Below are positions 34,067 through 54,780 of a DNA stretch of 64,000 bases, piece after piece. The translations under genes were made by a program, and so were the position numbers. The notes beneath the pieces were generated by a model. The model ran no database searches, was not told the DNA's origin, and saw nothing but the letters and a program-made list of their open reading frames with translations. Within the stretch, counting starts at the first letter, position 1. Each line of letters starts with the position of its first letter. The DNA comes from an uncultured Candidatus Binatia bacterium (lineage in GTDB: Bacteria > Desulfobacterota > Binatia > HRBIN30 > CADEER01): positions 483,160-547,159 of the forward strand of contig CBDCGC010000002.1 in assembly GCA_965216585.1 (NCBI GenBank), in the 5' to 3' direction.

Positions 34067-35509
34067 ATGTTCGTTCGCGTTTTGGCGCCGCTGCGCCGTT
34101 GGGTCGGCTGCGTGCTGTACGCGGCGGCGCTGCTTTCCCTGCTGGCTCCGGCACACCTGGTGCAATCAGCTCTGGCGGTTTCCCCGGTACCACTGGCGCG
34201 CCATAGCGGCGCTCGCTTCGACGGGCGAGCGCTGTCGATGGGTCTGACGCCGGCCGCCAGCGCGGTTCGGCGCCACCTCGGTCGCGCGAGTGACGGCAGG
34301 GCGATGAGCGTCGCCACATCGTCGGCGACGGCGCATCCATTGGCGTCGCCGATCTTTTTTCGCCAAGCCAGCGAATACCGTCTCGAGGACGACGTCGTCG
34401 CCGAATACGAGCTGGTGATCGGCCACAGTGGCGGTCGCGTCTGGATCGAATCGATCGACCGTTTCCCCGAAGCGACGGTCGGCAGCGAGGGGCTGCTGGC
34501 TCGGCTCGCTGGCGTCGAGATCCGCCGCACCATCGAGTTTGAAATGACCGGCTTCGAGTGGATGATCGAACGCGTCGTCGCGGCGGCGAACACCGACGCG
34601 AATCGTCACGCCGTGCTGGCGGCCATGCTCGAGGCGGGCGAGATCACCCACGGCGAGCTGCGCGACAGCGTTACCATCACCGAAGCTGACGGCGCCTCGA
34701 TCGTCATGCCGTCGGCGGATTTTTCGCTCGCTTCCTTCTTCGCCGGCCAAGGTAGCGGAGCGATTTCGGGCTGCGTCGTCGATTGTTTCGCCGAGATCGG
34801 TACGGCAATCACGGTTTTCGGCGCTCTGTGTTTGATCGCCGGCGCCGCCGTCTGCGGCGTCGCCTGTGCCGTTTCCGCCGGCGTTGCCTGTATTCCCTGC
34901 ATCAGTGGCGCCAGCCTCGCCTGCGGGCTTGGCGCCGCCGTCGGCTCGGTTGGCACCTGTCTCGCCTTCTGCATTTTCGGCGTCCGCCCGCCACCGACAC
35001 CGACGCGGCGTCCCTCGACGCGGACGCCAACACCGAATCGGGGAATCGCTTATACGGTCATCCCCGAATCTACCTCAATTGCAGTGGGTGAGGATTTTGA
35101 AGTTTCCTGGTCGGCTTCAGGTGCGCACTCCAACCGGGATTGGATCGCTCTCTATACGCCGAGCGCAGACAACCGTACCTTTATGGACTGGTCGTACATC
35201 TCGAGCGCAACCTCGGGGACGATCACGCTGACCGCACCGACCGACCCCGGCAGCTACGAGCTTCGCTTGCTCTTGGACAATGGATACCTGGAACCACTGC
35301 AACCAGCCCGCACGACGATTGTAGTGGAAGACCTCGAGCCGGGTGATTGCGACGGCGATTCGCGCATCACCATCAGTGAGTTGATCTTTGGTATCGGCAT
35401 TGCTCTCGGCCGCAACGATCTCTCGAATTGTCGGGACTTCGACGGCAACGGCAACGGCCGCGTCGACATCGCCGAGCTCATCCGCGCCGTGCGCGCGGCC
35501 TTGGGATAG
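34067..35509 (+). CDS. Secreted/membrane protein with Cys/Gly-rich segment, PT linker and C-terminal dockerin-like repeat pair (hypothetical)
   Basis: 480 aa. C-terminal GDCDGDSRITISELIFGIGIALG...DFDGNGNGRVDIAELIRAVRAALG. Confidence 0.5.
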   Translation: MFVRVLAPLRRWVGCVLYAAALLSLLAPAHLVQSALAVSPVPLARHSGARFDGRALSMGLTPAASAVRRHLGRASDGRAMSVATSSATAHPLASPIFFRQASEYRLEDDVVAEYELVIGHSGGRVWIESIDRFPEATVGSEGLLARLAGVEIRRTIEFEMTGFEWMIERVVAAANTDANRHAVLAAMLEAGEITHGELRDSVTITEADGASIVMPSADFSLASFFAGQGSGAISGCVVDCFAEIGTAITVFGALCLIAGAAVCGVACAVSAGVACIPCISGASLACGLGAAVGSVGTCLAFCIFGVRPPPTPTRRPSTRTPTPNRGIAYTVIPESTSIAVGEDFEVSWSASGAHSNRDWIALYTPSADNRTFMDWSYISSATSGTITLTAPTDPGSYELRLLLDNGYLEPLQPARTTIVVEDLEPGDCDGDSRITISELIFGIGIALGRNDLSNCRDFDGNGNGRVDIAELIRAVRAALG

Positions 35510-43495: not shown

Positions 43496-45979
43496 ATGGT
43501 GCAGGGTGAGCGGGTGACACGTATTCGCGGTACCGTCTTCCTCTTCTGCTCCGGCCTGGTCACCCTCGTCTACGAGGTTCTGTGGCTGCGCCAGCTCGGT
43601 CATCTCTTCGGCGTCAGCGCCCACGCGACGGCGACCTGCCTGGCCGTCTTCTTCTCCGGTATGGCGCTCGGCCAGGCGATCGCGGCGCGCCGTTGCGCCG
43701 CGCTGGCGTCGCCGCTGCGCACCTACGGGCTGCTCGAAATCGCCGCCGCAGCGGCGGCCTTGCTGGCGCTCTACTTGCCCGACATCTACCGCGCTCTCTA
43801 CGTCCTGCCGGCCGGCGACACCGGTTTCGGCGCCCACGCCACCCGCATCGCTCTGGCGGCCGTCGTCTTGCTGCCGCCGGCGGCGCTGCTCGGTGCGACC
43901 TTGCCGGTGATGGTGGAAGCGGAGACCCGCCACCTCGGCAACGCCCGCTTGCGCGCCACCGCGCTCTACTTCGCCAACACCGCCGGTGGCGTCGCCGGCG
44001 CTTGCCTGGCCGCCTTCTGGCTGGTGCCGGCGCTCGGCTACTACGCCTCCTACCTGGTCGCCGTCATCGCCGGTGCGTCGATCGGCGCCGCCGCCCTGGC
44101 CAGCGCCGGGCAGGCGCCGGCGGCCAAGCCAGTTGGCGCGGCACTGGCGCCGCCGCCGGCATCCCTGCGCTTGTCCGCCGTCGCCTTCGTCTCCGGCGCC
44201 CTCGCCCTGGCGATGGAGGTGATCTGGACGCGCATGCTGGCGCAGGTACTGCACAACTCGGTCTTCTCCTTCGCCGCCGTGCTCGCCGTGTTGCTGCTGG
44301 CTCTGAGCCTCGGCGCCGGCATCGTTCACCTGGCGCTGCGGCGCTGGCCGGCACCGCCGGCCGGCATCCTCGCCGGCCTCTTCGCCGCCGCCGCCGTCGC
44401 CTGCGCCGCCTCGGCGCTGGTCTTTCAGGCGCAGACCGACGGCCTGGCCTATCTGGGTGGCGACGCCGACTGGGCGTCGTACATGGTCGACGTCTTCAGC
44501 CTTGCCGCCGCCGTGATGTTGGTGCCGGGAGCGTTGCTCGGCGCCATCTTGCCGTACGCCGTGGCGCTGCTGGCGGGCGGCGACGCCATGCCCGGCCTGC
44601 GCGTCGGCCGCCTGATCGCCAGCAACACCGCCGGCTCGGTGATCGGCTCGCTGCTCGCCGGCTTCGCACTCCTGCCGGCATTGGACCTGTGGCCCGCCTT
44701 GCTCGCCGTCGCCGCTCTCTACGCCATCGGCGCCGCGCTGTTCACACCGCGACCGGCCGGCGTCGCCGCCGCCGTCGTCGCTCTCTTCCTCCTCTTTGTT
44801 CCGCTCGACCCGCGCGGTCTGCGCCGCGTCGACTTCGACCCGCACGGTGAGACGGTTCTCGAAGTCGTCGACTCGGCGGCCGGCACGGTTGCCGTCGTCC
44901 AGCGCGGCGACGTCGTCGCCCTGCGGCTCAACAACAGCTACACCGTCGGCACCAACGCCAACATCGTCAACGACCGGCGCAAGGCCGATCTACCCCTTCT
45001 CCTGCACCGGCGACCGCGCTCGGTCTTCTTCCTCGGCATGGGTGCCGGCATCACCGCGGCGGCCGCCCTCGACCACCCGCTGAGCAGCATCACGACTTGC
45101 GAGCTGGTACCGGAGATTGCCCGTCTCGCCGCTAAATATCTGCCCGAACAAAGCGGGCGACTGAGCAGCGATCCGCGCTCGCGCGTCGTCGCCGGCGACG
45201 GCCGCCACTATCTGGCGCGCAGCCGCGAGCGCTTCGACGTCATCATCGCCGACCTCTTCGTTCCCTGGCACAGCGGCGCCGGCGCTCTCTACTCGATCGA
45301 GCACTTCGCCAACGTCCGCCAGCGGCTCGGCGACGGCGGCCTCTTCGCCCAGTGGTTGCCGCTCTACCAGATGTCGCGGCAGGAGTTGGAGATCATCGCC
45401 CGTACCATGCTCGAGGTCTTCCCGCGCGTCACCCTGTGGCGCGGCGACCTGCTGCCGCGCTCGCCGGCCATCGCCCTGATCGGCCATGCCGGCGACCAGC
45501 CCCTCGATCTCCGCGACGTCCGCCGCAACGTCCGCCGCCGCATCGGCGAGCACGGCGCCGACGCCGCCGTCACCGACGCCCTGGCGCTGCTCTTCTACGC
45601 CGGCAACCTCAGCCAGGCGCGCCAGCTCTTCGCCGCCGCACCGATCAACAGCGACGATCGCCCGATCATCGAGCACGGCGCGCCGATCACCCAACGGCGC
45701 GTCAAAGCCGGGCAGGGCGCCTGGCTGACCTCGCTCGAGCTGCTGCGCTTCTACGCCGAGCTCGCCGCCGCCGTGCCGCCCGAGCGCGACGCCTTCCTAC
45801 ACAATCTCGACCATCGTCAGATCGAGTATCCGAAAGCGGGGAGGGACCTCTACGCAGCCTCCGTTCACCGCGACACCGGCGATTTTCGCCAGGCCGAGAT
45901 TGCGCTGGAGGCCTTTCGCCAGCGCGTGCCTGCGGAAGTGGTCGAGATCTTTGCCCAGCGAATCCCGTCGATAAAATAG
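43496..45979 (+). CDS. Fused multi-pass membrane domain / spermidine-synthase-like (PABS) protein with C-terminal extension
   Basis: 827 aa. N-terminal ~12 TM helices, then PABS-like core (TCELVPEIARLA...FDVIIADLFVPW) and an ~200-aa C-terminal helical region. Confidence 0.65.
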   Translation: MVQGERVTRIRGTVFLFCSGLVTLVYEVLWLRQLGHLFGVSAHATATCLAVFFSGMALGQAIAARRCAALASPLRTYGLLEIAAAAAALLALYLPDIYRALYVLPAGDTGFGAHATRIALAAVVLLPPAALLGATLPVMVEAETRHLGNARLRATALYFANTAGGVAGACLAAFWLVPALGYYASYLVAVIAGASIGAAALASAGQAPAAKPVGAALAPPPASLRLSAVAFVSGALALAMEVIWTRMLAQVLHNSVFSFAAVLAVLLLALSLGAGIVHLALRRWPAPPAGILAGLFAAAAVACAASALVFQAQTDGLAYLGGDADWASYMVDVFSLAAAVMLVPGALLGAILPYAVALLAGGDAMPGLRVGRLIASNTAGSVIGSLLAGFALLPALDLWPALLAVAALYAIGAALFTPRPAGVAAAVVALFLLFVPLDPRGLRRVDFDPHGETVLEVVDSAAGTVAVVQRGDVVALRLNNSYTVGTNANIVNDRRKADLPLLLHRRPRSVFFLGMGAGITAAAALDHPLSSITTCELVPEIARLAAKYLPEQSGRLSSDPRSRVVAGDGRHYLARSRERFDVIIADLFVPWHSGAGALYSIEHFANVRQRLGDGGLFAQWLPLYQMSRQELEIIARTMLEVFPRVTLWRGDLLPRSPAIALIGHAGDQPLDLRDVRRNVRRRIGEHGADAAVTDALALLFYAGNLSQARQLFAAAPINSDDRPIIEHGAPITQRRVKAGQGAWLTSLELLRFYAELAAAVPPERDAFLHNLDHRQIEYPKAGRDLYAASVHRDTGDFRQAEIALEAFRQRVPAEVVEIFAQRIPSIK

Positions 45980-46216
45980 CACATTGTTTTGTTCAAATGG
46001 TGAGCACTTAGCCCGATAGGGTCCATCATATGACTTGTCCGCAGCTCAACGTTTCCATTGACACTACGCGCCCGACGGGTTCTAAATGGGGAACGTAATC
46101 AAGAAGAGTAGACTGGTCGCGAGCGGTGTATCTCGCACCGGTGTACTGGGGAATCGATGGGGAACTCGATGATGATCAAGGTTTGTAGACCACCGCGCCC
46201 GGCTGCCCGCAAAACC

Positions 46217-48391
46217 ATGGCGTACAAGGCTTTGCTTGCTACATCGCTGTGGACGCTCAGCCTTCTCGGCGAGCCGCTGCTGGCCCACCCGGTGAGCGGG
46301 AATCTGGCGAGCAACTGTCGCATCGTGGCGACCAACTCGAGTATCAGCGTCTATTTGGACGTCGACAACACCACAGAACAGCAAGCCAAGAACCTCACCG
46401 CGGGCCTGCTCGATGGAACTAATATCGGCGACGCCTCGGTTTTCATCAACGTCACTCCAGGTCGACAGACCATCTTGCCCGGCAAGCGCAAGACCTTTCG
46501 CTGGCGTGGCGAGATTTTCGGCAACGGATTTCTCGATCTGACCGTCAGTGTCACCGGCACCTGGGACGACGGGGATCCGGCGACGACGGGTTTGGTGAAC
46601 TGCCCGCGACTGACGGTCGGCGATCCGGCCAGCCTGACGCCGCCGCCGACCAACACGGAGGCGATCCAGCCGACCTTCGGCTCGCAGCCGACGGCGACAC
46701 CGAGTCGCCGCGACCGGCGCGACACGCCGGTGCCGGTCACCCGCGCACCGACCAACACGCGGCGGCCGACGCGCACACCGATTCCGCCGCGACCGACGCG
46801 CACGCGCATCCCGACCAGCACGCGGCGGCCGCCGAGCACACCGATCGAACGCGATACTCCTGGTGACAACCGGCCGACGCGCACTCCCGACATCGGCGGT
46901 GAGCCGACACCGGAACGCCGCGTTCGACCGACCCGCACACCGATCGTCGGCCGCGCGACGCGCACGCCGATTGGCGGGAGGGCGACCCGTACACCGGTGC
47001 CGCAGCGGCCGACCCGCACGCCGATCCAGCTGCGGCCGACGCGCACGCCGCGCGGCGCCAACGTGCTGCCGACCGTGCCGCGCGAAGGGCAGGTTCCGGC
47101 CGAGGTGGTCGGCCGTCTGACCGCCAACTGCAGCCTGCGCCAGACCAACGATCAGATTGCCGTTCGCATGGTCGTGCAAAACACCACCGCCGTCATGGTC
47201 ACCGATCTCGCCGCCAGCTTTCTCGACCTGACGCCGGAGGGCGGTGCGCTCTTCTTCGACCCGACCGGGCCGAGTCCGCGTTCGTACGGCATCTTCGCAC
47301 CGGGCGACAGCGTCGTCTTCGAGTGGGGCGGCCGTATGAACGACGTCGGCGTCATCGGTTTCGCAGCATCCGTCGCCGGTACGTCGCCGGGCGGCAACCC
47401 GGTCATCAGCGGACTCATCGACTGCGGTTTTGGCTCGGGGCCGAACGGCTCCTTCGACAGCTCGCTGTTCACCGGTTCGTGTAGCATCCGCACCGGCCGC
47501 GGCGGCGCCGTCACGCTGCTCATCAACAACCGCAGCGGCGAGCCGATGTCCGAAATCGATCCGCGCTTGATCGACACCTCGTCGACCGGCACGGCGCAGG
47601 TCAATAGCCTGCGCGGTCCGGCGCCGCGGCGCCTGCGCCGGCTCGCCGGCGGTCAAACCCAGGAGTTTCTCTGGGAAGCCGATGTCCTCGGCAGCGGCAA
47701 CGTGAGCATGACGTTCCAGGCCGATGGCACGGTCGAGAGCGGTGACCGCATCAGCACGCCGACGATCACCTGCTCGACCGAGCTGGCGGCCACCGGCGGC
47801 TTGCCCGATCTCTCTGTCGACGAGCTCGATCAGCGCGGCTCCTGGGTCGTCGAAGAGCAGTTCTTCGGCCCCGGTCACTGCGCTCTCTTCGAAGGCTGTG
47901 TCGGCGGCAGCGGGGTGCGCCGGCTGCTCAAGTTCAACACGACGACACCCAACCACGGCCCCGGCGACCTCTTCCTCGGCGATCCGACCAACAATCCGGA
48001 GTTCATCTTCTCCGAGTGCCACCAGCACTTCCACTTCGAGGATTACGCCATCTATCGCCTGCTCGACATGAACGGCAATCAGGTGGCGCAGGGGCACAAG
48101 CAGGCCTTCTGCCTGGTCGACCTGTGGCGCCCGCCGGGCTCCAACGGTGCCCGCAACCCGGGCTTCCCCGACTGCGGTTTTCAGGGCATCAGCGCCGGCT
48201 GGGCCGACGTCTACCACCGCGATCTGGACTGCCAGTGGATCGACATCACCAACGTCCCGGACGGCCGCTACATCCTCGAGGTCCACATCAACCCGGCCCG
48301 GGTGGTGCAGGAATCGAACTACGCGAACAACATCGCGCGCAACGAGGTGTGCATCGGCATCCCAGAGGACGACGGCTGTGCGCGATTCTGA
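46217..48391 (+). CDS. Secreted lysyl oxidase (LOX) family protein: signal peptide, three Cys-bracketed ~110-aa domains, PTRTP-rich linker, C-terminal LOX catalytic domain
   Basis: C-terminal ~170 aa: CHQHFH (48016-48033), GHKQAFCLVD (Lys 48097-48099), VYHRDLDCQWIDITNV (Tyr 48212-48214), ILEVHINP...ESNYANNIARN. These align with animal LOX WEWHSCHQHYH / GHKASFCLED / TYGADIDCQWIDITDV / ILKVSVNP...ESDYTNNVVRC. Start taken at MAYKALLATSLWTLSLL (signal peptide). Confidence 0.8.
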   Translation: MAYKALLATSLWTLSLLGEPLLAHPVSGNLASNCRIVATNSSISVYLDVDNTTEQQAKNLTAGLLDGTNIGDASVFINVTPGRQTILPGKRKTFRWRGEIFGNGFLDLTVSVTGTWDDGDPATTGLVNCPRLTVGDPASLTPPPTNTEAIQPTFGSQPTATPSRRDRRDTPVPVTRAPTNTRRPTRTPIPPRPTRTRIPTSTRRPPSTPIERDTPGDNRPTRTPDIGGEPTPERRVRPTRTPIVGRATRTPIGGRATRTPVPQRPTRTPIQLRPTRTPRGANVLPTVPREGQVPAEVVGRLTANCSLRQTNDQIAVRMVVQNTTAVMVTDLAASFLDLTPEGGALFFDPTGPSPRSYGIFAPGDSVVFEWGGRMNDVGVIGFAASVAGTSPGGNPVISGLIDCGFGSGPNGSFDSSLFTGSCSIRTGRGGAVTLLINNRSGEPMSEIDPRLIDTSSTGTAQVNSLRGPAPRRLRRLAGGQTQEFLWEADVLGSGNVSMTFQADGTVESGDRISTPTITCSTELAATGGLPDLSVDELDQRGSWVVEEQFFGPGHCALFEGCVGGSGVRRLLKFNTTTPNHGPGDLFLGDPTNNPEFIFSECHQHFHFEDYAIYRLLDMNGNQVAQGHKQAFCLVDLWRPPGSNGARNPGFPDCGFQGISAGWADVYHRDLDCQWIDITNVPDGRYILEVHINPARVVQESNYANNIARNEVCIGIPEDDGCARF

Positions 48392-48568
48392 GAAAATACA
48401 CAAATCCGCAGAATTCGGGAGAAAGTTCTTGACTGCGGGAGTGAAAATTGAGTAGTTTGCGACCATCGTTCTATAGTATCGGAATTGGGGGACTAGAGAT
48501 CTTGCGAAAAACTGCTGACATTTTCGAAACTTACGGGAATTCAGCGGCGATTTGCAGGTTCCTAGATC

Positions 48569-48576
48569 AAGGAGGA
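48569..48576 (+). promoter_or_regulatory. Shine-Dalgarno AAGGAGGA, 8 nt upstream of the ATG at 48585
   Basis: Strong consensus RBS within a 190-bp lower-GC intergenic region. Confidence 0.6.
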
Positions 48577-48584
48577 CAGCTCAT

Positions 48585-50105
48585 ATGACGAAACTGCGAT
48601 TGGCTCAGGTCACGCTTTTGAGCGTGGCCATCGCGGTATTCACCGTGGGGAGTGCGGGGGCGCAAGCAGTCCGCACGCGGAAACCCACCAAGACACCACG
48701 TCCGACTCGCACGCAGATCGTAGATCAGGCGAGGACGCGCAAGCCGACCAAGACGTCGCGGCCTACCCGCACGCAAGTGATCGACCAGGCGCGCACCCGC
48801 AAGCCGACCAAGACCTCGCGGCCGACTCGCACGCAGATCGTCAAAGATCTGCGCACGCGCAAGCCGACCAAGACCTCGCGGCCGACTCGCACGCCGATCG
48901 TCAAAGATCTGCGCACCCGCAAGCCGACCAAGACCTCGCGGCCGACCCGTACGCCGATCGTCAAAGATCTGCGCACGCGCAAGCCGACCAAGACCTCGCG
49001 GCCAACTCGTACGCCGATCATCAAGGACGTGCGCACGCGCAAGCCAACCAAGACCTCGCGGCCGACCCGTACGCCGCTGAGTGTCGAGGTGAGGACGCGC
49101 AAGCCGACCAAGACGCAACGGCCGACTCGCACGCCGATTCTCAAAGAGGTGAGGACGCGCAAGCCGACCAAGACCTCGCGGCCGACCCGCACGCCGATCA
49201 GCTTGGATGTACGCACGCGCAAGCCGACCAAGACACAGCGGCCGACCCGTACGCCGATCGTCAAAGATGTGCGCACGCGCAAGCCGACCAAGACGCAGCG
49301 GCCGACTCGTACGCCGATCATCAAAGACGTGCGCACGCGCAAGCCGACCAAGACGATGCGTCCGACTCGTACGCCGATCTCAAACGAGATCCGCACGCGC
49401 AAGCCGACCAAGACCTTGCGGCCGACCCGTACGCCGATTCTCAAAGAGGTGAGGACGCGCAAGCCGACCAAGACCTTGCGGCCGACCCGTACGCCGGTCT
49501 CGAACGAGATTCGCACACGCAAGCCGACCAAGACACTGCGGCCGACTCGTACGCCTTTCATCAAGAACGAGAGAACGCGCAAGCCGACCAAGACCCTGCG
49601 GCCGACTCGTACGCCAGTTTCGAACGAAGCCCGCACGCGCAAGCCGACCAAGACCCTGCGGCCGACCCGTACGCCTGCACCTCTCGAGGCCCGCACGCGC
49701 AAACCGACCAAGACCCTGCGGCCGACTCGCACGCCGGTTCCCGAGGAAGCGCCTGAGGCGTTCGATCCTAGCGACGTGACTGCTCGGTGCTATGCCAGCA
49801 ACAAGGGTGGTCCCGACGGCAAGAAGGATCTCGTCCGCATCCTGATGCAGGTGTCAAACCGCTCTGGCGCGGCCGTCCGAGTTAGCGCCGGTGGAATCGA
49901 CATCAGTGGCTCTGGCAACTATGAGCCAGTTACTGGCGCGGCAGGGAATTCAAAACCCGTCAGAAGCTCGGTGGTCCTCTCTTGGACAATTCGAGTTCGC
50001 GGAACGCTCAGCGTGACGGCTACTGCGAATGCATCGGGCCCGAATGGCGAGCAGATTCCGTTGTCAGCCGACTGCGGGAGTGTGACAGGAGCACCTGCTC
50101 TCTAA
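48585..50105 (+). CDS. Secreted Lys/Arg/Thr/Pro-rich tandem-repeat protein: 18 x 20-aa repeats RTRKPTKTxRPTRTPIxKDV plus a C-terminal Cys-bracketed ~110-aa domain
   Basis: Signal peptide MTKLRLAQVTLLSVAIAVFTVGSAGAQA. Repeats have perfect 60-nt periodicity. C-terminal domain resembles the Cys-bracketed domains of the upstream LOX protein. Confidence 0.75.
   Translation: MTKLRLAQVTLLSVAIAVFTVGSAGAQAVRTRKPTKTPRPTRTQIVDQARTRKPTKTSRPTRTQVIDQARTRKPTKTSRPTRTQIVKDLRTRKPTKTSRPTRTPIVKDLRTRKPTKTSRPTRTPIVKDLRTRKPTKTSRPTRTPIIKDVRTRKPTKTSRPTRTPLSVEVRTRKPTKTQRPTRTPILKEVRTRKPTKTSRPTRTPISLDVRTRKPTKTQRPTRTPIVKDVRTRKPTKTQRPTRTPIIKDVRTRKPTKTMRPTRTPISNEIRTRKPTKTLRPTRTPILKEVRTRKPTKTLRPTRTPVSNEIRTRKPTKTLRPTRTPFIKNERTRKPTKTLRPTRTPVSNEARTRKPTKTLRPTRTPAPLEARTRKPTKTLRPTRTPVPEEAPEAFDPSDVTARCYASNKGGPDGKKDLVRILMQVSNRSGAAVRVSAGGIDISGSGNYEPVTGAAGNSKPVRSSVVLSWTIRVRGTLSVTATANASGPNGEQIPLSADCGSVTGAPAL
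48669..49748 (+). repeat. 18 tandem copies of a 60-bp coding repeat
   Basis: Unit approx cgcacgcgcaagccgaccaagacctcgcggccgac(c/t)cg(c/t)acgccgatcgtcaaagatctg, with third-position and C-terminal codon variation. Confidence 0.9.
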
Positions 50106-50143
50106 AGCGGACTGTTCGAGCTGCCTTCCTTGAGAAGGGTGAA

Positions 50144-50178
50144 AGGGTCAGGCCTTCCGGGTCTGGCCCTTTCTTTTT
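50144..50178 (+). terminator. Putative intrinsic terminator after the repeat-protein gene
   Basis: agggtcaggcc-ttccg-ggtctggccct forms an 11-bp stem (2 G-U pairs) with a 5-nt loop, followed by TTCTTTTT. Confidence 0.45.
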
Positions 50179-50284
50179 GTGGCAGCAGTCGTTCAGAGCA
50201 CGGGCGGGCTTTGTCGACGCCTTCGCTTCTCTTTGTTTCACGCCTTTGTTATCTTCATCGTCAAACTCCAGGCGGGAGCACTCG

Positions 50285-51781
50285 ATGCGCGTACGAATTC
50301 TCGGGCTTTACTCTCTAATTGCGTTTCTCCTGCTGGCGGCGAGCGCGGTGGCGCAGACGCCCAGCGTGACGCCCACCCCGGGGGGCGACTGTTGCTCGAT
50401 TCACCCCGGGCCGAGCTGCGACATTCCGGCTTGTGCGGCCTGTGTCTGCGAAGACCAGGAAGAGCCTCTGTGCTGTGTCGACGGCAGTCCGGAGGGCTGG
50501 GATCGCATCTGTCTCGCCTTTGCCGAGAGTGACGACTGTGCCGAGGTCTGTTTGTGCGGCGAGCCGCCGACGCCGACGCCGACGCCGGGTGGTGACTGCT
50601 GCTTGCCGCACGCCGGTAGCCGCTGCGACGACGAAGCGTGTACGACCTGCGTCTGCGACCGCGACAGCAACTGCTGCACGGGACCTTGGGACGCGTTCTG
50701 CGTCGAGTCGGCGCGTACGGTCGACGAGTGCGCGGGCGAGTGCTCGGATTGTATGCCGCTGCCGACCATCCCGCCGCTGGCGACGCCGACGCCCGGACCT
50801 TGTTGCGAAGGCCGCGATCTCAATCCCGGTTGCGATGAGAGTATGTGCGAGAGCTGCGTCTGCGCCGTCGACGCAAACTGCTGCCTCGACACCTGGGACG
50901 AGCTCTGCGCCGTCATCGCGGTCGAGGAGTGCGCCATCGATTGCGTCTGCGTCGAGGACGGCGACTGCTGTAGCGGACACGACGGTTTTGGTTGCAATGA
51001 CCGGCGTTGTCAGGAGTGTGTCATCGCCCTCGATCCGGAATGTGGCGAGCAGTGGGACGACGACTGCGCATCGGAGGCGCGGCTCGAGTGCGCGCTCGAC
51101 TGCACCTGTGGCGATTGCTGCGCCGAGAATCCGGACGAGGTACCGGGCTGCGGCGTCAAACCCTGCCAAGACTGCGTTTGCGAGATCGACGAGGAGTGCT
51201 GCACGGAGCTGTGGGATGCGCAATGCGACTCGATCGCTCGCGATGAATGCTCGCTCGACTGTCCGTGCTTGAACTGCTGCGAGGAACAGGTGGTTCCGGG
51301 CTGCGGTGAGAAGGAGTGTCAGACCTGTGTCTGCGCCCTCGATGCGAATTGCTGCGATGAAGTATGGGACGGCATCTGTGCCGCCCGCGCCGTCGAAGAG
51401 TGCGACCGCCGCTGCGAGTGCGAGGCCGGCAGCAACTGTTGTATCGCCCGGCCGACCGAGACGGGTTGCGACGAAAGCGCCTGCGAAGCGTGTGTCTGCG
51501 GCGTCGACGATTTCTGCTGCACCGACCTGTGGGATTCCACCTGCTCGGACGAGATCACCGTCAACGAGTGCGCCGCCGAATGCTCATGTGATCCTGGGAG
51601 CTGTGTCGGCGATTGCGATGGCGACGGCGAAGTCTCGATCGGTTCGCTCATCCGCTGCGTCGGCGTCGCCCTCGGCAACTCTCCGGTCAGCGAGTGCCGC
51701 GCCTGCGATGCCGATGGAGACGGCGAGGTCTCGATCGGCGAGCTCATCCAGGCCGTCGGCAACGCCCTCGAGGGCTGCTGA
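50285..51781 (+). CDS. Secreted Cys-rich repeat protein: 7 x ~52-aa 10-Cys repeats plus C-terminal dockerin-like pair
   Basis: Signal peptide MRVRILGLYSLIAFLLLAASAVA. Repeat pattern CC-x6-8-GC-x3-C-x2-CVC-x4-CC-x3-WD-x2-C-x8-EC-x3-C-x-C. PTPTPG linkers. C-terminal CVGDCDGDGEVSIGSLIRCVGVALG...CDADGDGEVSIGELIQAVGNALEGC. Confidence 0.7.
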   Translation: MRVRILGLYSLIAFLLLAASAVAQTPSVTPTPGGDCCSIHPGPSCDIPACAACVCEDQEEPLCCVDGSPEGWDRICLAFAESDDCAEVCLCGEPPTPTPTPGGDCCLPHAGSRCDDEACTTCVCDRDSNCCTGPWDAFCVESARTVDECAGECSDCMPLPTIPPLATPTPGPCCEGRDLNPGCDESMCESCVCAVDANCCLDTWDELCAVIAVEECAIDCVCVEDGDCCSGHDGFGCNDRRCQECVIALDPECGEQWDDDCASEARLECALDCTCGDCCAENPDEVPGCGVKPCQDCVCEIDEECCTELWDAQCDSIARDECSLDCPCLNCCEEQVVPGCGEKECQTCVCALDANCCDEVWDGICAARAVEECDRRCECEAGSNCCIARPTETGCDESACEACVCGVDDFCCTDLWDSTCSDEITVNECAAECSCDPGSCVGDCDGDGEVSIGSLIRCVGVALGNSPVSECRACDADGDGEVSIGELIQAVGNALEGC

Positions 51782-51826: not shown

Positions 51827-52174
51827 AAGGGTGGTGTCGCGCCGCGAGACGTTCGAGGGTTCACCGCCGCAATCCAGATAGCCGGGTTAGCCGATCCCAG
51901 CCCGGTTCACCGGGCTTTCTTCCCTCAGCCGTGGGCTTCAGCCCTCGGCTGTTTGCACGCACACATTCACTCGTTTCCCACCCGCCGCCGAGCGCTGAAG
52001 CGCCCGGCTCAAATCGTCAAAGCCCCTGCGGGGCTGAAACGAAGGGTGGTGTCGCGCCGTCGGGCCGCGAGACGCTCGAGGTTTCACCGCCGCAATCCAG
52101 ATAGCCGGTAGCCGATCCCAGCCCGGTTCACCGGGCTTTCTTCCCTCAGCCGTGGGCTTCAGCCCTCGGCTGTT
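51827..52174. repeat. Two ~127-132-bp direct repeats (51827-51953, 52043-52174) in a convergent intergenic region
   Basis: aagggtggtgtcgcgccg...ttcaccgccgcaatccagatagccgg..cccggttcaccgggctttcttccctcagccgtgggcttcagccctcggctgttt. Contains the cccggttcaccggg palindrome. Confidence 0.7.
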
Positions 52175-52175
52175 T

Positions 52176-52485
52176 GTCCGTACACGTCTCCGCCCGCCGC
52201 TGCGAATGCGGAGGCTCCGCTCTATTGGCCGGCGGTTGTCCGTACACGTCTCCGCCCGCCGCTGCGAATGCGGAGGCTCCGCTCTATTGGCCGGCGGTCG
52301 TCCGTACACGTCTCCGCCCGCCGCTGCGAATGCGCAGGCGCCGCTCTATTGGCCGGCGGTTGCTCGCACACATCTCCGCCGGCCGCTACGAGGACGGAGA
52401 CCCCGCGCTCTGGGCCGGCGTTCGCGCACGTCTCCGCCCCCGGCTCCGTGTGCTAGGCCGCGCGCTATTGGCCGGTGGCGGCGTC
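52176..52485. repeat. ~5 tandem copies of a 62-bp hairpin-containing repeat
   Basis: gtccgtacacgtctccgcccgccgctgcgaatgcggaggctccgctctattggccggcggtt, with stem CTCCGC...GCGGAG. The last copy abuts or overlaps the 3' end of the minus-strand gene ending at 52465. Confidence 0.7.
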
Positions 52486-53451
52486 GAGTGCTTCGGGGGA
52501 GGGGACTCGGCCCTCGCGCCGCATCTTGAAGATCAGATCGGCAACGCGCGTCGCCACCTCGAGCTTGGCCGCTAGATCTACGTTGCGCTGGTGCTCGGCG
52601 TCGAGGGTCGACTGTAGGGCGAGGTTCTCGGTTTCGAGATCGCGGACGCGATCGGTCAGCCCACCGCCCTCCGCCCCTTGCAGGTTTGCGATGGTCGAGC
52701 GCAGCTCGGCTTCGCGCTTGCGACTGGCCTCGAGATCCTGCTGGATGGCCGCCATCAAGCGGCGCTGGTCTTCCTGCAGCTCGGCGACCTCGACCGGCAC
52801 CGCCGCCTCGACGACCGCGGGCTGTTGATCGAGGCGCACCTTGAGCTCGGCGTAGCGCTGCTCGAGATCGTCGCGCTCGCCGCGCTCGCGCTGGAGTTGC
52901 TGCCGCAGTTGCTCGATTTCTCCGCGCGCCTCCTCCAGGGCGGTCGCCGTCGCGGCGTCGAAGGGTCCGCTCGAGGTCTCCTCGCGCATGCGCGCCAACT
53001 GATCCTCGGCGGCGACGCGCCGGCTTCGTTCACTCGCCAGCTCGGTCTCGAGACGGGCGATCTGCGGCACCGGGTCGGCTTGGCCCGATTGGGCAGCGAG
53101 GGCCGCCTCGGTCGCGGCGCGAGCCTCGGACAGCTCGGCGCGCAGCGACTCGTTTTCGTTGCGCGCCTGAGAGAGAGCTGTGCTGAGCTCGCGCTCGCGT
53201 GCCTGCAGAGCGCTGACGGCCTCGGCCGCACCAGCGCCGGCGCCGCCACTGGACAGTTGTGTCTCGAGCTCGCGAATACGGCGTTGGGCGCGCGAAAGTT
53301 GCATGCGGATCGAGCGCACCCGGCCGCGGCCCATGCCACCTCTCAACACTGGCCCCGAGCCCGCCGACCGCTCGGCCACCGTGCAGGCGGACGTGAGGGT
53401 CAGAGGAATCAGCAGAAGCCAGGGTGTGAAAAACGCTCCACGTGTCTTCAT
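52465..53451 (-). CDS. Coiled-coil lipoprotein (hypothetical)
   Basis: Start MKTRGAFFTPWLLLIPLTLTSAC (lipobox). Remainder is heptad-rich (ELETQLS..., LRAELSEARAATEAAL...). N-terminal extension of the ORF runs across the REP array and is rejected. Confidence 0.55.
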   Translation of the reverse strand: MKTRGAFFTPWLLLIPLTLTSACTVAERSAGSGPVLRGGMGRGRVRSIRMQLSRAQRRIRELETQLSSGGAGAGAAEAVSALQARERELSTALSQARNENESLRAELSEARAATEAALAAQSGQADPVPQIARLETELASERSRRVAAEDQLARMREETSSGPFDAATATALEEARGEIEQLRQQLQRERGERDDLEQRYAELKVRLDQQPAVVEAAVPVEVAELQEDQRRLMAAIQQDLEASRKREAELRSTIANLQGAEGGGLTDRVRDLETENLALQSTLDAEHQRNVDLAAKLEVATRVADLIFKMRREGRVPSPEALDAATGQ

Positions 53452-53517: not shown

Positions 53518-53648
53518 GGGAGGGCGAGTCGCCTGACGAGCCGCCGGTCCCCCGACCCCAGCGGGAGGGCGAGTCGCCTGACGAGCCGCCGGTCCCCCGA
53601 CCCCAGCGGGAGGGCGAGTCGCCTGACGAGCCGCCGGTCCCCCAGAGC
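53518..53648. repeat. REP array, 3 x 46 bp, upstream of the RAYT gene
   Basis: gggagggcgagtcgcctgacgagccgccggtcccccgaccccagcg x2 plus a truncated third copy. Core GGCGAGTCGCC is near-palindromic. Confidence 0.8.
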
Positions 53649-54237: not shown

Positions 54238-54780
54238 TTGGGGTGTGTTCGGGTCGCCGGGTGGCTCGTCAGGCGACTCGCCCTCCCAAGACAAGAATGA
54301 CGGGGGTGTGTTCGGGTCGCCGGGTGGCTCGTCAGGCGACTCGCCCTCCCAAGACAAGAATGACGGGGGTGTGTTCGGGTCGCCGGGTGGCTCGTCTGGC
54401 GACTCGCCCTCCCAAGACAAGAATGACGGGGGTGTGTTCGGGTCGCCGGGTGGCTCGTCAGGCGACTCGCCCTCCCAAGACAAGAATGACGGGGGTTGTT
54501 CGGGTCGCCGGGTGGCTCGTCAGGCGACTCGCCCTCCCAAGACAAGAATGACGGGGGTTGTTTGGGTCGCCGGGTGGCTCGTCAGGCGACTCGCCCTCCC
54601 AAGACAAGAATGACGGGGGTTGTTTGGGTCGCCGGGTGGCTCGTCAGGCGACTCGTCCTCCCAAGACAAGAATGACGGGGGTTGTTCGGGTCGCCGGGTG
54701 GCTCGTCAGGCGACTCGCCCTCCCAAGACAAGAATGACGGGGGTTGTTCGGGTCGCCGGGTGGCTCGTCAGGCGACTCGC
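54238..54780. repeat. REP array, ~9 x 62 bp, downstream of the RAYT gene
   Basis: gggggtgtgttcgggtcgccgggtggctcgtcaggcgactcgccctcccaagacaagaatgac repeated head-to-tail. Contains ggctcgtcaggcgactcgccctcc, the reverse complement of the upstream array core. No unique spacers. Confidence 0.85.

What the first reader, a model, noticed from the sequence alone, without database searches (positions are those of the whole stretch)
47860..48391. Bacterial LOX catalytic domain with every key catalytic feature retained
Read directly from the translation: CHQHFH (nt 48016-48033) matches the animal LOX copper site HxHxH in WEWHSCHQHYH. GHKQAFCLVD (Lys codon 48097-48099) matches GHKASFCLED, which holds the LTQ lysine. 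VYHRDLDCQWIDITNV (Tyr codon 48212-48214) places a Tyr exactly 6 residues before the DCQW Cys, as in human TYGADIDCQWIDITDV, which holds the LTQ tyrosine. The C-terminal ILEVHINP...ESNYANNIARN matches ILKVSVNP...ESDYTNNVVRC. Conserved Cys positions would allow the same disulfides. This indicates an active amine oxidase, not a decayed xenolog. LOX genes in bacteria are sporadic and usually attributed to horizontal transfer.
Basis: partly seen in the sequence, partly recalled or inferred. Interest (0 to 1): 0.8.

Follow-up and report, generated by a model that had tools for sequence, protein, structure and literature searches.

The report
Bacterial lysyl oxidase with lysine-repeat partner
An uncultured soil-type bacterium (Binatia) encodes a secreted, apparently intact lysyl oxidase, which is a known kind of gene, but it always sits beside a secreted protein made of 20-residue repeats that each carry one invariant lysine, giving the first concrete candidate for what a bacterial lysyl oxidase works on.

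Summary
ORF 46157-48391 (+, 744 aa) ends in a lysyl oxidase (LOX) domain: Pfam PF01186 E=4e-36, human LOXL2 structure 5ZE3 E=1e-30, AlphaFold model pLDDT 94 with TM 0.77 to 5ZE3. The copper histidines H622/H624/H626 and cofactor residues K648/Y686 align exactly and are conserved in 52 homologs. Two quoted codon positions are 1 nt off. Only 3 of the 5 hLOXL2 disulfides are conserved.

Bacterial LOX domains with intact catalytic residues were described in 2015, so that part is not new. The horizontal-transfer framing does not fit here. The gene has native composition, lies in conserved synteny after uvrB, and co-diverges with UvrB in a Candidatus Binatia clade.

What is new is the context:
- The enzyme carries three lineage-specific beta-sandwich domains and a lysine-free Pro/Thr/Arg linker.
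- In 15/15 related loci the next gene encodes a secreted polycationic protein of 12-23 repeats (xTRKPTxTxRPTRTPIxxEx) with an invariant Lys, ending in the same beta-sandwich domain.
- Seven relatives fuse such repeats directly to LOX.
- A polyanionic Cys-rich protein follows in 8/8 loci.

Inferred, untested: the LOX oxidises the repeat lysines to cross-link an extracellular matrix.

The parts
46157..48391 (+). LOX gene, 744-aa ORF including the stop codon. The true start is probably between 46157 and 46217. The database copy P0001 starts at 46169. M21 at 46217 opens a signal-peptide-like MAYKALLATSLWTLSLLGEPLLA|H.
   Evidence: GC3 0.84
46316..46603 (+). Domain D1 (C54-C149), a Cys-bracketed beta-sandwich domain.
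   Evidence: Homologous to D2 and D3: blastp and hhalign probability 98.8-99.0%. C54 is >=90% conserved and C149 is invariant.
46604..47128 (+). Pro/Thr/Arg-rich linker (residues 150-324) with RPTRTPI half-repeats and no lysine.
   Evidence: 0 K and 32 R in the window. 12 K against 1354 R over 52 homologs.
47129..47425 (+). Domain D2 (C325-C423), beta-sandwich.
   Evidence: AlphaFold2 pLDDT 92.8 for D2+D3. Generic tandem Ig-like hits.
47480..47773 (+). Domain D3 (C442-C539), beta-sandwich.
47789..48388 (+). LOX catalytic domain (about residues 545-744).
   Evidence: Pfam PF01186 E=4.2e-36. 5ZE3 E=1.1e-30. AlphaFold2 pLDDT 93.8. Foldseek TM 0.77 to 5ZE3.
48020..48034 (+). Copper-binding HxHxH (H622, H624, H626).
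   Evidence: Aligned to H626/H628/H630 of hLOXL2 (PMC5899467). Invariant in 52/52 homologs.
48098..48100 (+). K648, lysine precursor of the lysine tyrosylquinone (LTQ) cofactor.
   Evidence: Aligned to K653 of hLOXL2. Present in 52/52 homologs.
48212..48214 (+). Y686, tyrosine precursor of the LTQ cofactor.
   Evidence: Aligned to Y689 of hLOXL2. Present in 51/52 homologs.
48448..48477 (+). Promoter-like site (TTGAGT-18-TATAGT) in the 193-nt gap before the partner gene.
   Evidence: This is a consensus match only.
48585..50105 (+). Partner gene, 506 aa. AGGAGG at 48570-48575, then a signal peptide ending AQA, then 18 x 20-aa repeats RTRKPTKTxRPTRTPxxxxx, then a C-terminal beta-sandwich. The mature protein has net charge +100 and pI 12.
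   Evidence: Conserved immediately downstream of LOX in 15/15 loci of this type.
48672..49751 (+). The array of 18 repeats (60-nt DNA period).
   Evidence: Tandem Repeats Finder: period 60, 17.7 copies, 80% matches. Protein repeat logo.
49788..50075 (+). Partner C-terminal Cys-bracketed domain (C402-C497), homologous to D1-D3 of the LOX protein.
   Evidence: hhalign probability 99.4% and E=6e-21 to D2, 97.8% to D1 and D3.
50141..50183 (+). Terminator-like hairpin (15-bp stem followed by a T run) after the partner gene.
50285..51781 (+). Third conserved gene. It encodes a secreted Cys-rich repeat protein (88 Cys in 474 aa, net charge -88, pI 4.1) ending in a dockerin-like DxDGDGxVxIxELI pair.
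   Evidence: Present in 8/8 type-A loci that have enough downstream sequence.

Best explanation
The ORF encodes a secreted, multi-domain copper amine oxidase of the lysyl oxidase family. Its order is signal peptide, beta-sandwich D1, a lysine-free Pro/Thr/Arg linker, beta-sandwiches D2 and D3, then a C-terminal LOX domain.

The LOX domain would bind Cu2+ through H622/H624/H626. It would build its lysine tyrosylquinone (LTQ) cofactor autocatalytically from K648 and Y686. It would then turn primary amines into aldehydes, releasing NH3 and H2O2.

The gene is a long-resident, vertically inherited gene of a clade of uncultured Candidatus Binatia. It is the first gene of a conserved three-gene module.

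Most likely substrate (inferred, not shown): the invariant lysine at position 4 of each 20-residue repeat (x-T-R-K-P-T-x-T-x-R-P-T-R-T-P-I-x-x-E-x) of the polycationic secreted protein encoded immediately downstream. The acidic catalytic domain (pI 4.7) would be attracted to this pI-12 polymer. The beta-sandwich domain that enzyme and partner share could dock them. The allysines produced would condense spontaneously with each other or with unmodified lysines. The result would be a covalently cross-linked extracellular protein layer, a bacterial analogue of elastin/collagen cross-linking. The polyanionic Cys-rich third protein may be a counter-component of that layer.

Shown here: family membership, residue conservation, fold, architecture, gene linkage, fusions and lysine patterns.

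Inferred: catalytic activity, the identity of the substrate, and cross-linking.
For: Enzyme identity:
- Pfam PF01186 at 125 bits and 5ZE3 at E=1e-30 with the catalytic residues in register.
- Those residues are invariant in 52-63 homologs.
- The AlphaFold2 model has pLDDT 93.8. Its best PDB match is hLOXL2 at TM 0.77 and 35% identity.
- The Ca2+ site ligands of hLOXL2 (D549, L550, E722, D724, N727, N728; PMC5899467) correspond to D551, L552, E719, N721, N724, N725.
- An archaeal homolog with the same residues is an active, BAPN-sensitive amine oxidase (PMC6452851).

Residency in the lineage:
- UvrB's best named hits are Candidatus Binatia, at 75-79% identity.
- Synteny is conserved.
- UvrB and LOX identities co-vary.
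- Composition is native.

Substrate hypothesis:
- The partner gene lies directly downstream on the same strand in 15/15 loci of this LOX type. It is absent from 73 other LOX loci.
- Two Binatia uvrB loci without LOX also lack the partner and Cys-rich genes.
- Over 168 repeats in 11 proteins the arrays are contiguous at period 20, so K4 is never missing. The Arg positions 3, 10 and 13 are almost never Lys.
- The enzyme's own related linker has K/(K+R)=0.009. The rest of the same proteins has 0.15 and housekeeping proteins of the window 0.34.
- Searching with the partner returns seven proteins in which K-containing repeats plus the beta-sandwich are fused to a LOX domain.
- The partner's C-terminal domain is homologous to D1-D3 of the enzyme.
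- Both proteins have signal peptides, and their charges are complementary.
Against: - There is no biochemical evidence of any kind. Copper binding, LTQ formation and activity are all inferred from sequence.
- The partner shares both its domain and its RPTRTP motif with the enzyme's N-terminal part. The two genes may therefore be tandem paralogs whose adjacency is partly historical rather than functional.
- In the fused relatives the enzyme itself carries the lysine repeats. This weakens the 'enzyme avoids its own lysines' argument, unless self-incorporation into the matrix is intended.
- The only characterised prokaryotic LOX has relaxed specificity and oxidises small amines (PMC6452851).
- The counted homologs are related sequences, so the counts are not independent events.
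- Gene callers often miss the partner, so its true distribution, including genomes without LOX, is poorly known.
Confidence: 0.6

Rival explanations
1. The LOX is active but works on small soluble amines, for example for nitrogen scavenging, detoxifying cationic antibiotics, or producing H2O2 against competitors. The repeat protein and the enzyme's linker are merely extended cell-surface spacers or anchors of mucin/extensin type. The gene adjacency reflects tandem duplication of a shared N-terminal module.
For: - The Haloterrigena turkmenica LOX oxidises many small amines, aminoglycosides and polymyxin (PMC6452851).
- The partner's domain and its RPTRTP motif are homologous to parts of the enzyme.
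- The repeat region resembles mucin and extensin proteins in composition.
Against: - This does not explain why Lys at repeat position 4 is invariant and never replaced by Arg.
- It does not explain why the enzyme's related linker is almost Lys-free.
- It does not explain why adjacency holds in 15/15 loci across UvrB divergence down to about 76%.
- It does not explain why fusions recur.
Confidence: 0.25
2. The lysine repeats are modified or used by something other than the LOX. Examples are glycosylation, another cross-linking chemistry, or binding of anionic polymers or eDNA. On this reading the LOX acts on a different protein, for example the Cys-rich third protein or a cell-envelope component.
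For: - The three-gene module contains a third, unexplained secreted protein.
- The partner's extreme positive charge (+100) would suit polyanion binding.
Against: - The Cys-rich protein has only 2 Lys in 474 residues, so it is a poor LOX substrate.
- Charge alone would tolerate K/R exchange, which is not seen at position 4.
- No other modifying enzyme is conserved within the module.
Confidence: 0.1
3. The domain is a catalytically dead or repurposed LOX fold, for example a binding module, or a recently transferred xenolog with no role in this host.
For: - Two of the five hLOXL2 disulfides are missing, as is the first His of the animal copper motif.
Against: - All residues known to be essential are invariant across 52-63 homologs.
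- The missing His is dispensable and absent from bacterial LOX generally (PMC4448552).
- The number of disulfides is known to vary among LOX proteins (PMC6452851).
- Native composition, conserved synteny and co-divergence argue against recent transfer.
Confidence: 0.05

Closest known systems
Human LOXL2 catalytic domain (PDB 5ZE3) and the animal LOX/LOXL family
   Same: - Same Pfam family and same beta-sandwich fold (TM 0.77, 35% identity).
- HxHxH copper site, LTQ Lys and Tyr, Ca2+ site and three disulfides at aligned positions.
- Secreted.
- If the hypothesis holds, it acts on peptidyl-lysine of a repetitive extracellular structural protein.
   Different: - No SRCR domains or animal-type propeptide. 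Instead it has three lineage-specific Cys-bracketed beta-sandwiches and a Pro/Thr/Arg linker.
- It lacks the C663-C685 and C732-C746 disulfides and the first His of WEWH.
- The candidate substrate is unrelated to collagen or elastin.
Prokaryotic LOX homologs (Grau-Bove et al. 2015, PMC4448552) and Haloterrigena turkmenica HTU-LOX (Pestov et al. 2019, PMC6452851)
   Same: - A bacterial/archaeal LOX domain with the three essential His and the LTQ residues conserved, and the first His absent.
- NCBI already names close homologs 'lysyl oxidase family protein'.
   Different: - The 2015 survey found that nearly all prokaryotic LOX proteins consist of the LOX domain alone, in five phyla that do not include Binatia.
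- HTU-LOX's native role is called cryptic.
- Here there is a roughly 540-aa N-terminal extension, a conserved three-gene module and fusion variants. Together these point to a specific protein substrate.
Tropoelastin/LOX cross-linking, and extensin/peroxidase cross-linking in plants (functional analogues only)
   Same: - A secreted repetitive structural protein with the cross-linkable residue at fixed positions in each repeat, together with a secreted oxidase.
- The repeat region hits mucin- and extensin-like proteins by composition.
   Different: - There is no sequence homology between the partner and elastin, collagen or extensins.
- Cross-linking here is hypothetical.

Membership tests
Lysyl oxidase family (Pfam PF01186) | Significant match to the family profile above the curated threshold | tested here: met
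   125 bits against a cut-off of 20.4, E=4.2e-36. phmmer to 5ZE3 gives E=1.1e-30.
Lysyl oxidase family (Pfam PF01186) | Three copper-binding histidines (HxHxH; H626/H628/H630 in hLOXL2) | tested here: met
   H622/H624/H626 are aligned and invariant in 52/52 homologs.
Lysyl oxidase family (Pfam PF01186) | LTQ precursor lysine and tyrosine (K653 and Y689 in hLOXL2) | tested here: met
   K648 and Y686 fall in the same alignment columns. They are present in 52/52 and 51/52 homologs.
Lysyl oxidase family (Pfam PF01186) | LOX catalytic-domain fold | tested here: met
   The AlphaFold2 model has pLDDT 93.8. The top Foldseek PDB hit is 5ZE3 at E=1.5e-14 and TM 0.76-0.77. The next hits are unrelated small beta-sandwiches with TM <=0.36.
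Lysyl oxidase family (Pfam PF01186) | Disulfide framework of the animal catalytic domain (5 bonds in hLOXL2) | tested here: inconclusive
   Three of five Cys pairs are conserved. C663-C685 is absent and C732-C746 has no aligned counterpart (PMC5899467). The number of disulfides is known to vary among LOX proteins (PMC6452851).
Lysyl oxidase family (Pfam PF01186) | First histidine of the animal 'copper talon' (WEWH) | tested here: not met
   F618 in the window; Y, F, W or I in all 52 homologs. This His is reported as absent from bacterial LOX and as dispensable for copper binding and activity (PMC4448552). It therefore defines animal LOX, not the family.
Lysyl oxidase family (Pfam PF01186) | Structural Ca2+ site (D549, L550, E722, D724, N727, N728 in hLOXL2) | tested here: met
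   The counterparts are D551, L552, E719, N721, N724, N725. Five are identical and one is a D-to-N change, with N in 41 and D in 7 of 52 homologs.
Lysyl oxidase family (Pfam PF01186) | Copper content, LTQ formation, and BAPN-sensitive amine oxidase activity | not testable with these tools
   This requires expression and biochemistry.
LOX-based matrix cross-linking system (enzyme plus lysine-bearing structural substrate) | Both enzyme and substrate are exported | tested here: met
   N-terminal signal-peptide-like sequences were read by eye in the LOX (LLA|H), the partner (AQA|V) and the Cys-rich protein (VAQ|T). No dedicated predictor was available.
LOX-based matrix cross-linking system (enzyme plus lysine-bearing structural substrate) | A repetitive partner protein with lysine at fixed, conserved positions, genetically linked to the enzyme | tested here: met
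   15/15 loci carry it. K4 is present in all 168 repeats. Seven fusion proteins exist.
LOX-based matrix cross-linking system (enzyme plus lysine-bearing structural substrate) | Allysine and derived cross-links formed in the partner by the enzyme | not testable with these tools
   This requires in vitro assays and mass spectrometry.

The most novel reading that the evidence does not exclude
A clade of Binatia builds a covalently cross-linked extracellular protein matrix using a dedicated three-gene module. The module comprises a LOX, a polycationic protein whose 20-residue repeats each present one lysine to the enzyme, and a polyanionic Cys-rich protein. This would be the first native substrate and physiological role for any prokaryotic lysyl oxidase. 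It would also be a bacterial counterpart, and possibly a forerunner, of LOX-mediated matrix cross-linking in animals.
Probability: 0.4. Interest if true: 0.8.

Novelty: new variant of a known kind. Interest (0 to 1): 0.55.

Why it matters
Lysyl oxidases underlie collagen and elastin cross-linking in animals. Homologs are widespread in prokaryotes, but their native function is described in the literature as enigmatic or cryptic (PMC4448552, PMC6452851).

This module offers a specific, cheap experiment. Mix the enzyme with its neighbour, or with a 20-mer peptide and its K4R control. That could show what a bacterial LOX does, and whether peptidyl-lysine cross-linking of a structural protein predates animals.

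It would also reveal an unknown surface or matrix structure in Binatia, a widespread uncultured lineage, and could yield a simple enzyme/substrate pair for making protein materials.

There is a practical lesson as well. The partner gene is often missed or called on the wrong strand by gene finders, so protein databases hide this linkage.

Tried and rejected
- Exact look-ups of the window protein and of its 100%-identical database copy P0001 returned no contig.
- The genome collection scan gave only three loci and did not contain the source genome.
- Rfam and tRNA scans of the window found nothing.
- NCBIfam has no model matching the LOX protein, the partner or the Cys-rich protein.
- Pfam gives only sub-threshold noise for the partner and the Cys-rich protein.
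- Literature searches for a bacterial LOX substrate, or for LOX in Binatia, found nothing relevant.
- A 2026 preprint on cysteine-rich repeats mentions LOX only in passing and concerns different repeats.
- I checked whether other bacterial LOX loci (L018-L090) carry lysine-rich tandem-repeat neighbours. None do, so the pairing is specific to this LOX type.
- Fold search of D2+D3 returned only generic tandem Ig-like sandwiches with low TM, such as transglutaminase C-terminal barrels, integrins and RbmA. I do not read function into these.
- The exhaustive search with the partner protein returned mainly truncated orthologs, LOX fusions, and mucin- or extensin-like proteins similar only in composition.
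- Recent horizontal transfer and 'decayed xenolog' were considered and rejected on composition, synteny, co-divergence and residue conservation.
Full report
**1. Observation**

All quoted motifs are present in frame.
- CHQHFH is at 48017-48034.
- The Lys of GHKQAFC is K648, codon 48098-48100.
- The Tyr of VYHRDLDCQW is Y686, codon 48212-48214.

The similarity is not chance.
- Pfam PF01186 (Lysyl_oxidase) scores 125 bits against a cut-off of 20.4, E=4.2e-36.
- The only PDB sequence hit is human LOXL2 (5ZE3), E=1.1e-30.
- In that alignment H622/H624/H626, K648 and Y686 align with H626/H628/H630, K653 and Y689. The crystal-structure paper identifies these as the metal ligands and the LTQ precursors (PMC5899467).

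**2. Conservation and fold**

About 60 full-length homologs exist, at 42-65% identity and 690-780 aa. All come from metagenomes, and a few are already named 'lysyl oxidase family protein' by NCBI.
- In an alignment of 52 of them, C621, H622, H624, H626, H647, K648 and C652 are invariant. Y686 and C692 are present in 51/52.
- An AlphaFold2 model of residues 541-744 has mean pLDDT 93.8. Its best PDB match is 5ZE3, at E=1.5e-14, TM 0.76-0.77 and 35% identity.
- The Ca2+ ligands of hLOXL2 have counterparts D551, L552, E719, N721, N724, N725.

The disulfide claim is only partly right.
- C573-C625, C579-C695 and C657-C673 of hLOXL2 have conserved counterparts.
- C663-C685 is absent here (R658, W682).
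- The window's C732/C741 pair occurs in only 10/52 homologs and does not align with C732-C746.

The first His of the animal WEWH motif is F618. This is the reported state for bacterial LOX, and that His is dispensable (PMC4448552).

**3. Organism and history**

The window is about 65% GC throughout. The LOX gene's GC3 is 0.84, within the range of its neighbours at about 0.75-0.90.

The neighbours are housekeeping genes:
- Upstream: malate dehydrogenase, succinyl-CoA ligase beta subunit, a methyltransferase, a PolB-like exonuclease, then uvrB.
- Downstream: TANGO2, an AAA ATPase, a CoxE-type VWA protein, a bifunctional nuclease and a TPR protein.

UvrB's closest named relatives, at 75-79% identity, are Candidatus Binatia.

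The same gene order, with LOX right after uvrB, is found in every large contig that carries a homolog: L004, L005, L006, L008, L009 and L092. Across 11 loci, pairwise UvrB and LOX-domain identities co-vary, with Spearman 0.60 over 55 non-independent pairs.

The gene is therefore an old resident of this clade and not a recent import. Two Binatia uvrB loci (L091, L093) lack it, so the module has been gained or lost as a block.

LOX domains in general are common. Two peptide patterns alone recovered at least 582 loci from metagenomes.

**4. Architecture**

The catalytic domain is only the last roughly 200 residues. In front of it are:
- a signal-peptide-like N-terminus;
- a Cys-bracketed domain D1 (C54-C149);
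- a 175-residue Pro/Thr/Arg-rich linker with RPTRTPI half-repeats;
- two more Cys-bracketed domains, D2 (C325-C423) and D3 (C442-C539).

D1-D3 are mutually homologous (blastp; hhalign probability 98.8-99.1%). D2+D3 model confidently (pLDDT 92.8) as two beta-sandwiches. Their structural neighbours are generic tandem Ig-like domains.

The 2015 survey reported that nearly all prokaryotic LOX proteins are single-domain. This architecture is therefore unusual.

**5. The neighbours**

*The partner gene.* After a 193-nt gap comes a second + strand gene, 48585-50105, preceded by AGGAGG.
- It has a signal peptide ending in AQA, followed by 18 exact 20-residue repeats RTRKPTKTxRPTRTPxxxxx (60-nt DNA period, 80% matches), followed by a C-terminal Cys-bracketed domain.
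- That domain is homologous to the enzyme's D1-D3, with hhalign probability 99.4% and E=6e-21 to D2.
- A terminator-like hairpin with a 15-bp stem follows at 50141-50173. A promoter-like site precedes the gene at 48448-48477.

*Linkage across loci.*
- The same kind of gene, with 12-23 repeats, lies directly downstream of LOX in all 15 loci of this LOX type that have downstream sequence: the window, L001, L004-L009, L011-L015, L017 and L092.
- It lies in none of 73 loci with other LOX architectures.

*The third gene.* A third + strand gene, 50285-51781, encodes a secreted protein with 88 Cys in 474 residues, net charge -88 and a dockerin-like C-terminus. It follows in 8/8 loci with enough sequence. 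The two Binatia loci without LOX lack both the partner and this gene.

**6. Lysine pattern**

- Over 168 repeats from 11 partner proteins the consensus is x-T-R-K-P-T-[S/K]-T-x-R-P-T-[R/S]-T-P-I-x-x-[E/D]-x.
- The arrays are contiguous at period 20, so no repeat lacks the Lys at position 4.
- The Arg positions 3, 10 and 13 are essentially never Lys. Lys and Arg are thus not interchangeable there.
- The related linker inside the enzyme holds 12 Lys against 1354 Arg over 52 homologs, K/(K+R)=0.009. The rest of the same proteins has 0.15, and housekeeping proteins of the window have 0.34.
- The mature partner has net charge +100 (pI 12). The LOX catalytic domain has net charge -15 (pI 4.7).

**7. 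Fusions**

A database search with the partner protein returned mainly LOX proteins: P0055, P0056 and P0059-P0063. In these, Lys-containing repeats and one beta-sandwich are fused directly to a LOX domain.

In L009 such a fusion is itself followed by a 785-aa Lys/Pro/Thr repeat protein.

An exhaustive HMMER search of 1.84 billion representative proteins found only 33 proteins at E<=1e-10. These are truncated partner orthologs, the fusions, and eukaryotic mucin- or extensin-like proteins similar only in composition.

The window's own partner protein is absent from the protein collection. In L009 and L092 gene callers placed ORFs on the opposite strand across the repeats.

**8. Interpretation**

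Membership in the LOX family is well supported. The essential residues are conserved, and an archaeal homolog with the same residues is an active, BAPN-sensitive amine oxidase (PMC6452851). The enzyme is therefore very probably active.

Five findings point to the repeat lysines as its native substrate:
- conserved linkage to the partner gene;
- recurrent fusions of such repeats to LOX domains;
- the invariant, non-exchangeable Lys in the partner;
- the near-absence of Lys in the enzyme's own linker;
- complementary charge, together with the shared docking-type domain.

Oxidation to allysine would be followed by spontaneous condensation, giving a cross-linked extracellular polymer. This step is inference.

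The main rival reading is that the two genes are tandem paralogs and the repeats are mere spacers. On that reading the enzyme acts on small amines, as the Haloterrigena enzyme can.

I put the probabilities at about 0.9 for an active LOX-family oxidase and about 0.4-0.5 for the partner being its substrate.

**9. Novelty**

A bacterial LOX domain with intact catalytic residues is already known (PMC4448552). On that reading the finding is an ordinary new member from a lineage not covered in 2015.

The multi-domain architecture, the conserved three-gene module and the fusion variants were not found in the searchable literature. They make the open question of prokaryotic LOX function directly testable. 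Hence the classification 'new variant of a known kind' and a moderate interest score.

Noticed in passing
window 43496-45979 (+): A fused MFS/spermidine-synthase gene (NCBIfam NF037959, 118 bits; Pfam Spermine_synth) lies between uvrB and the LOX gene. It is there only in the window and is absent at this position in L004-L009 and L092. A polyamine-making enzyme next to an amine oxidase may be coincidence.
   Followed up: partly
window 50285-51781 (+); also L004 14096-15613, L008 14229-15443, L092 16689-18722: A secreted, very acidic Cys-rich protein (about 16% Cys, net charge -88). It is built of roughly 45-residue repeats (GGDCC...C..CVC..D..CC...WD..C...) and ends in a dockerin-like DxDGDGxVxIxELI pair. 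It matches no Pfam or NCBIfam family and is the conserved third gene of the module.
   Followed up: partly
window 34067-35509 (+): An unrelated 480-aa secreted or membrane protein ends in the same dockerin-like double motif (GDCDGDSRITISELI...DGNGNGRVDIAELI). The first gene of L091 also shows a faint EF-hand hit. The lineage may use this C-terminal module as a common surface-attachment tag.
   Followed up: no
window 52174-52475, 53518-53643, 54240-54500: Three non-coding-looking DNA tandem arrays: 62 nt x4, 45 nt x2.8 at 100% identity, and 63 nt x4.2 at 98%. They lie around the coiled-coil lipoprotein gene. The 45-nt and 63-nt units share a 25-nt core in inverted orientation (GGGAGGGCGAGTCGCCTGACGAGCC).
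   Followed up: no
L009 12511-14693; L092 12334-13107; window 48725-49732 (-): Over the Pro/Thr-repeat DNA the opposite strand is also an open, high-GC3 frame. Public gene calls take that wrong strand or split the LOX gene. As a result the partner proteins are largely missing or truncated in protein databases.
   Followed up: yes
window 52465-53451 (-); L005 15609-16619, L006 15124-16152, L008 15484-16617, L009 14814-15863: A conserved coiled-coil protein of about 330 aa with a lipoprotein-type signal peptide (for example ...LLAGC in L005). It lies on the opposite strand between the module and TANGO2 in all these loci. Its relation to the module is unknown.
   Followed up: no
window 48672-49751 (partner repeats): The repeat core R-T-R-K-P-T-K-T loosely resembles the histone H3 tail A-R-T-K-Q-T-A-R-K-S (H3 sequence recalled from memory). 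The Lys4 of that tail is reported to be oxidised by human LOXL2 (PMC6937214, title and abstract only). This is a curiosity, not evidence.
   Followed up: no
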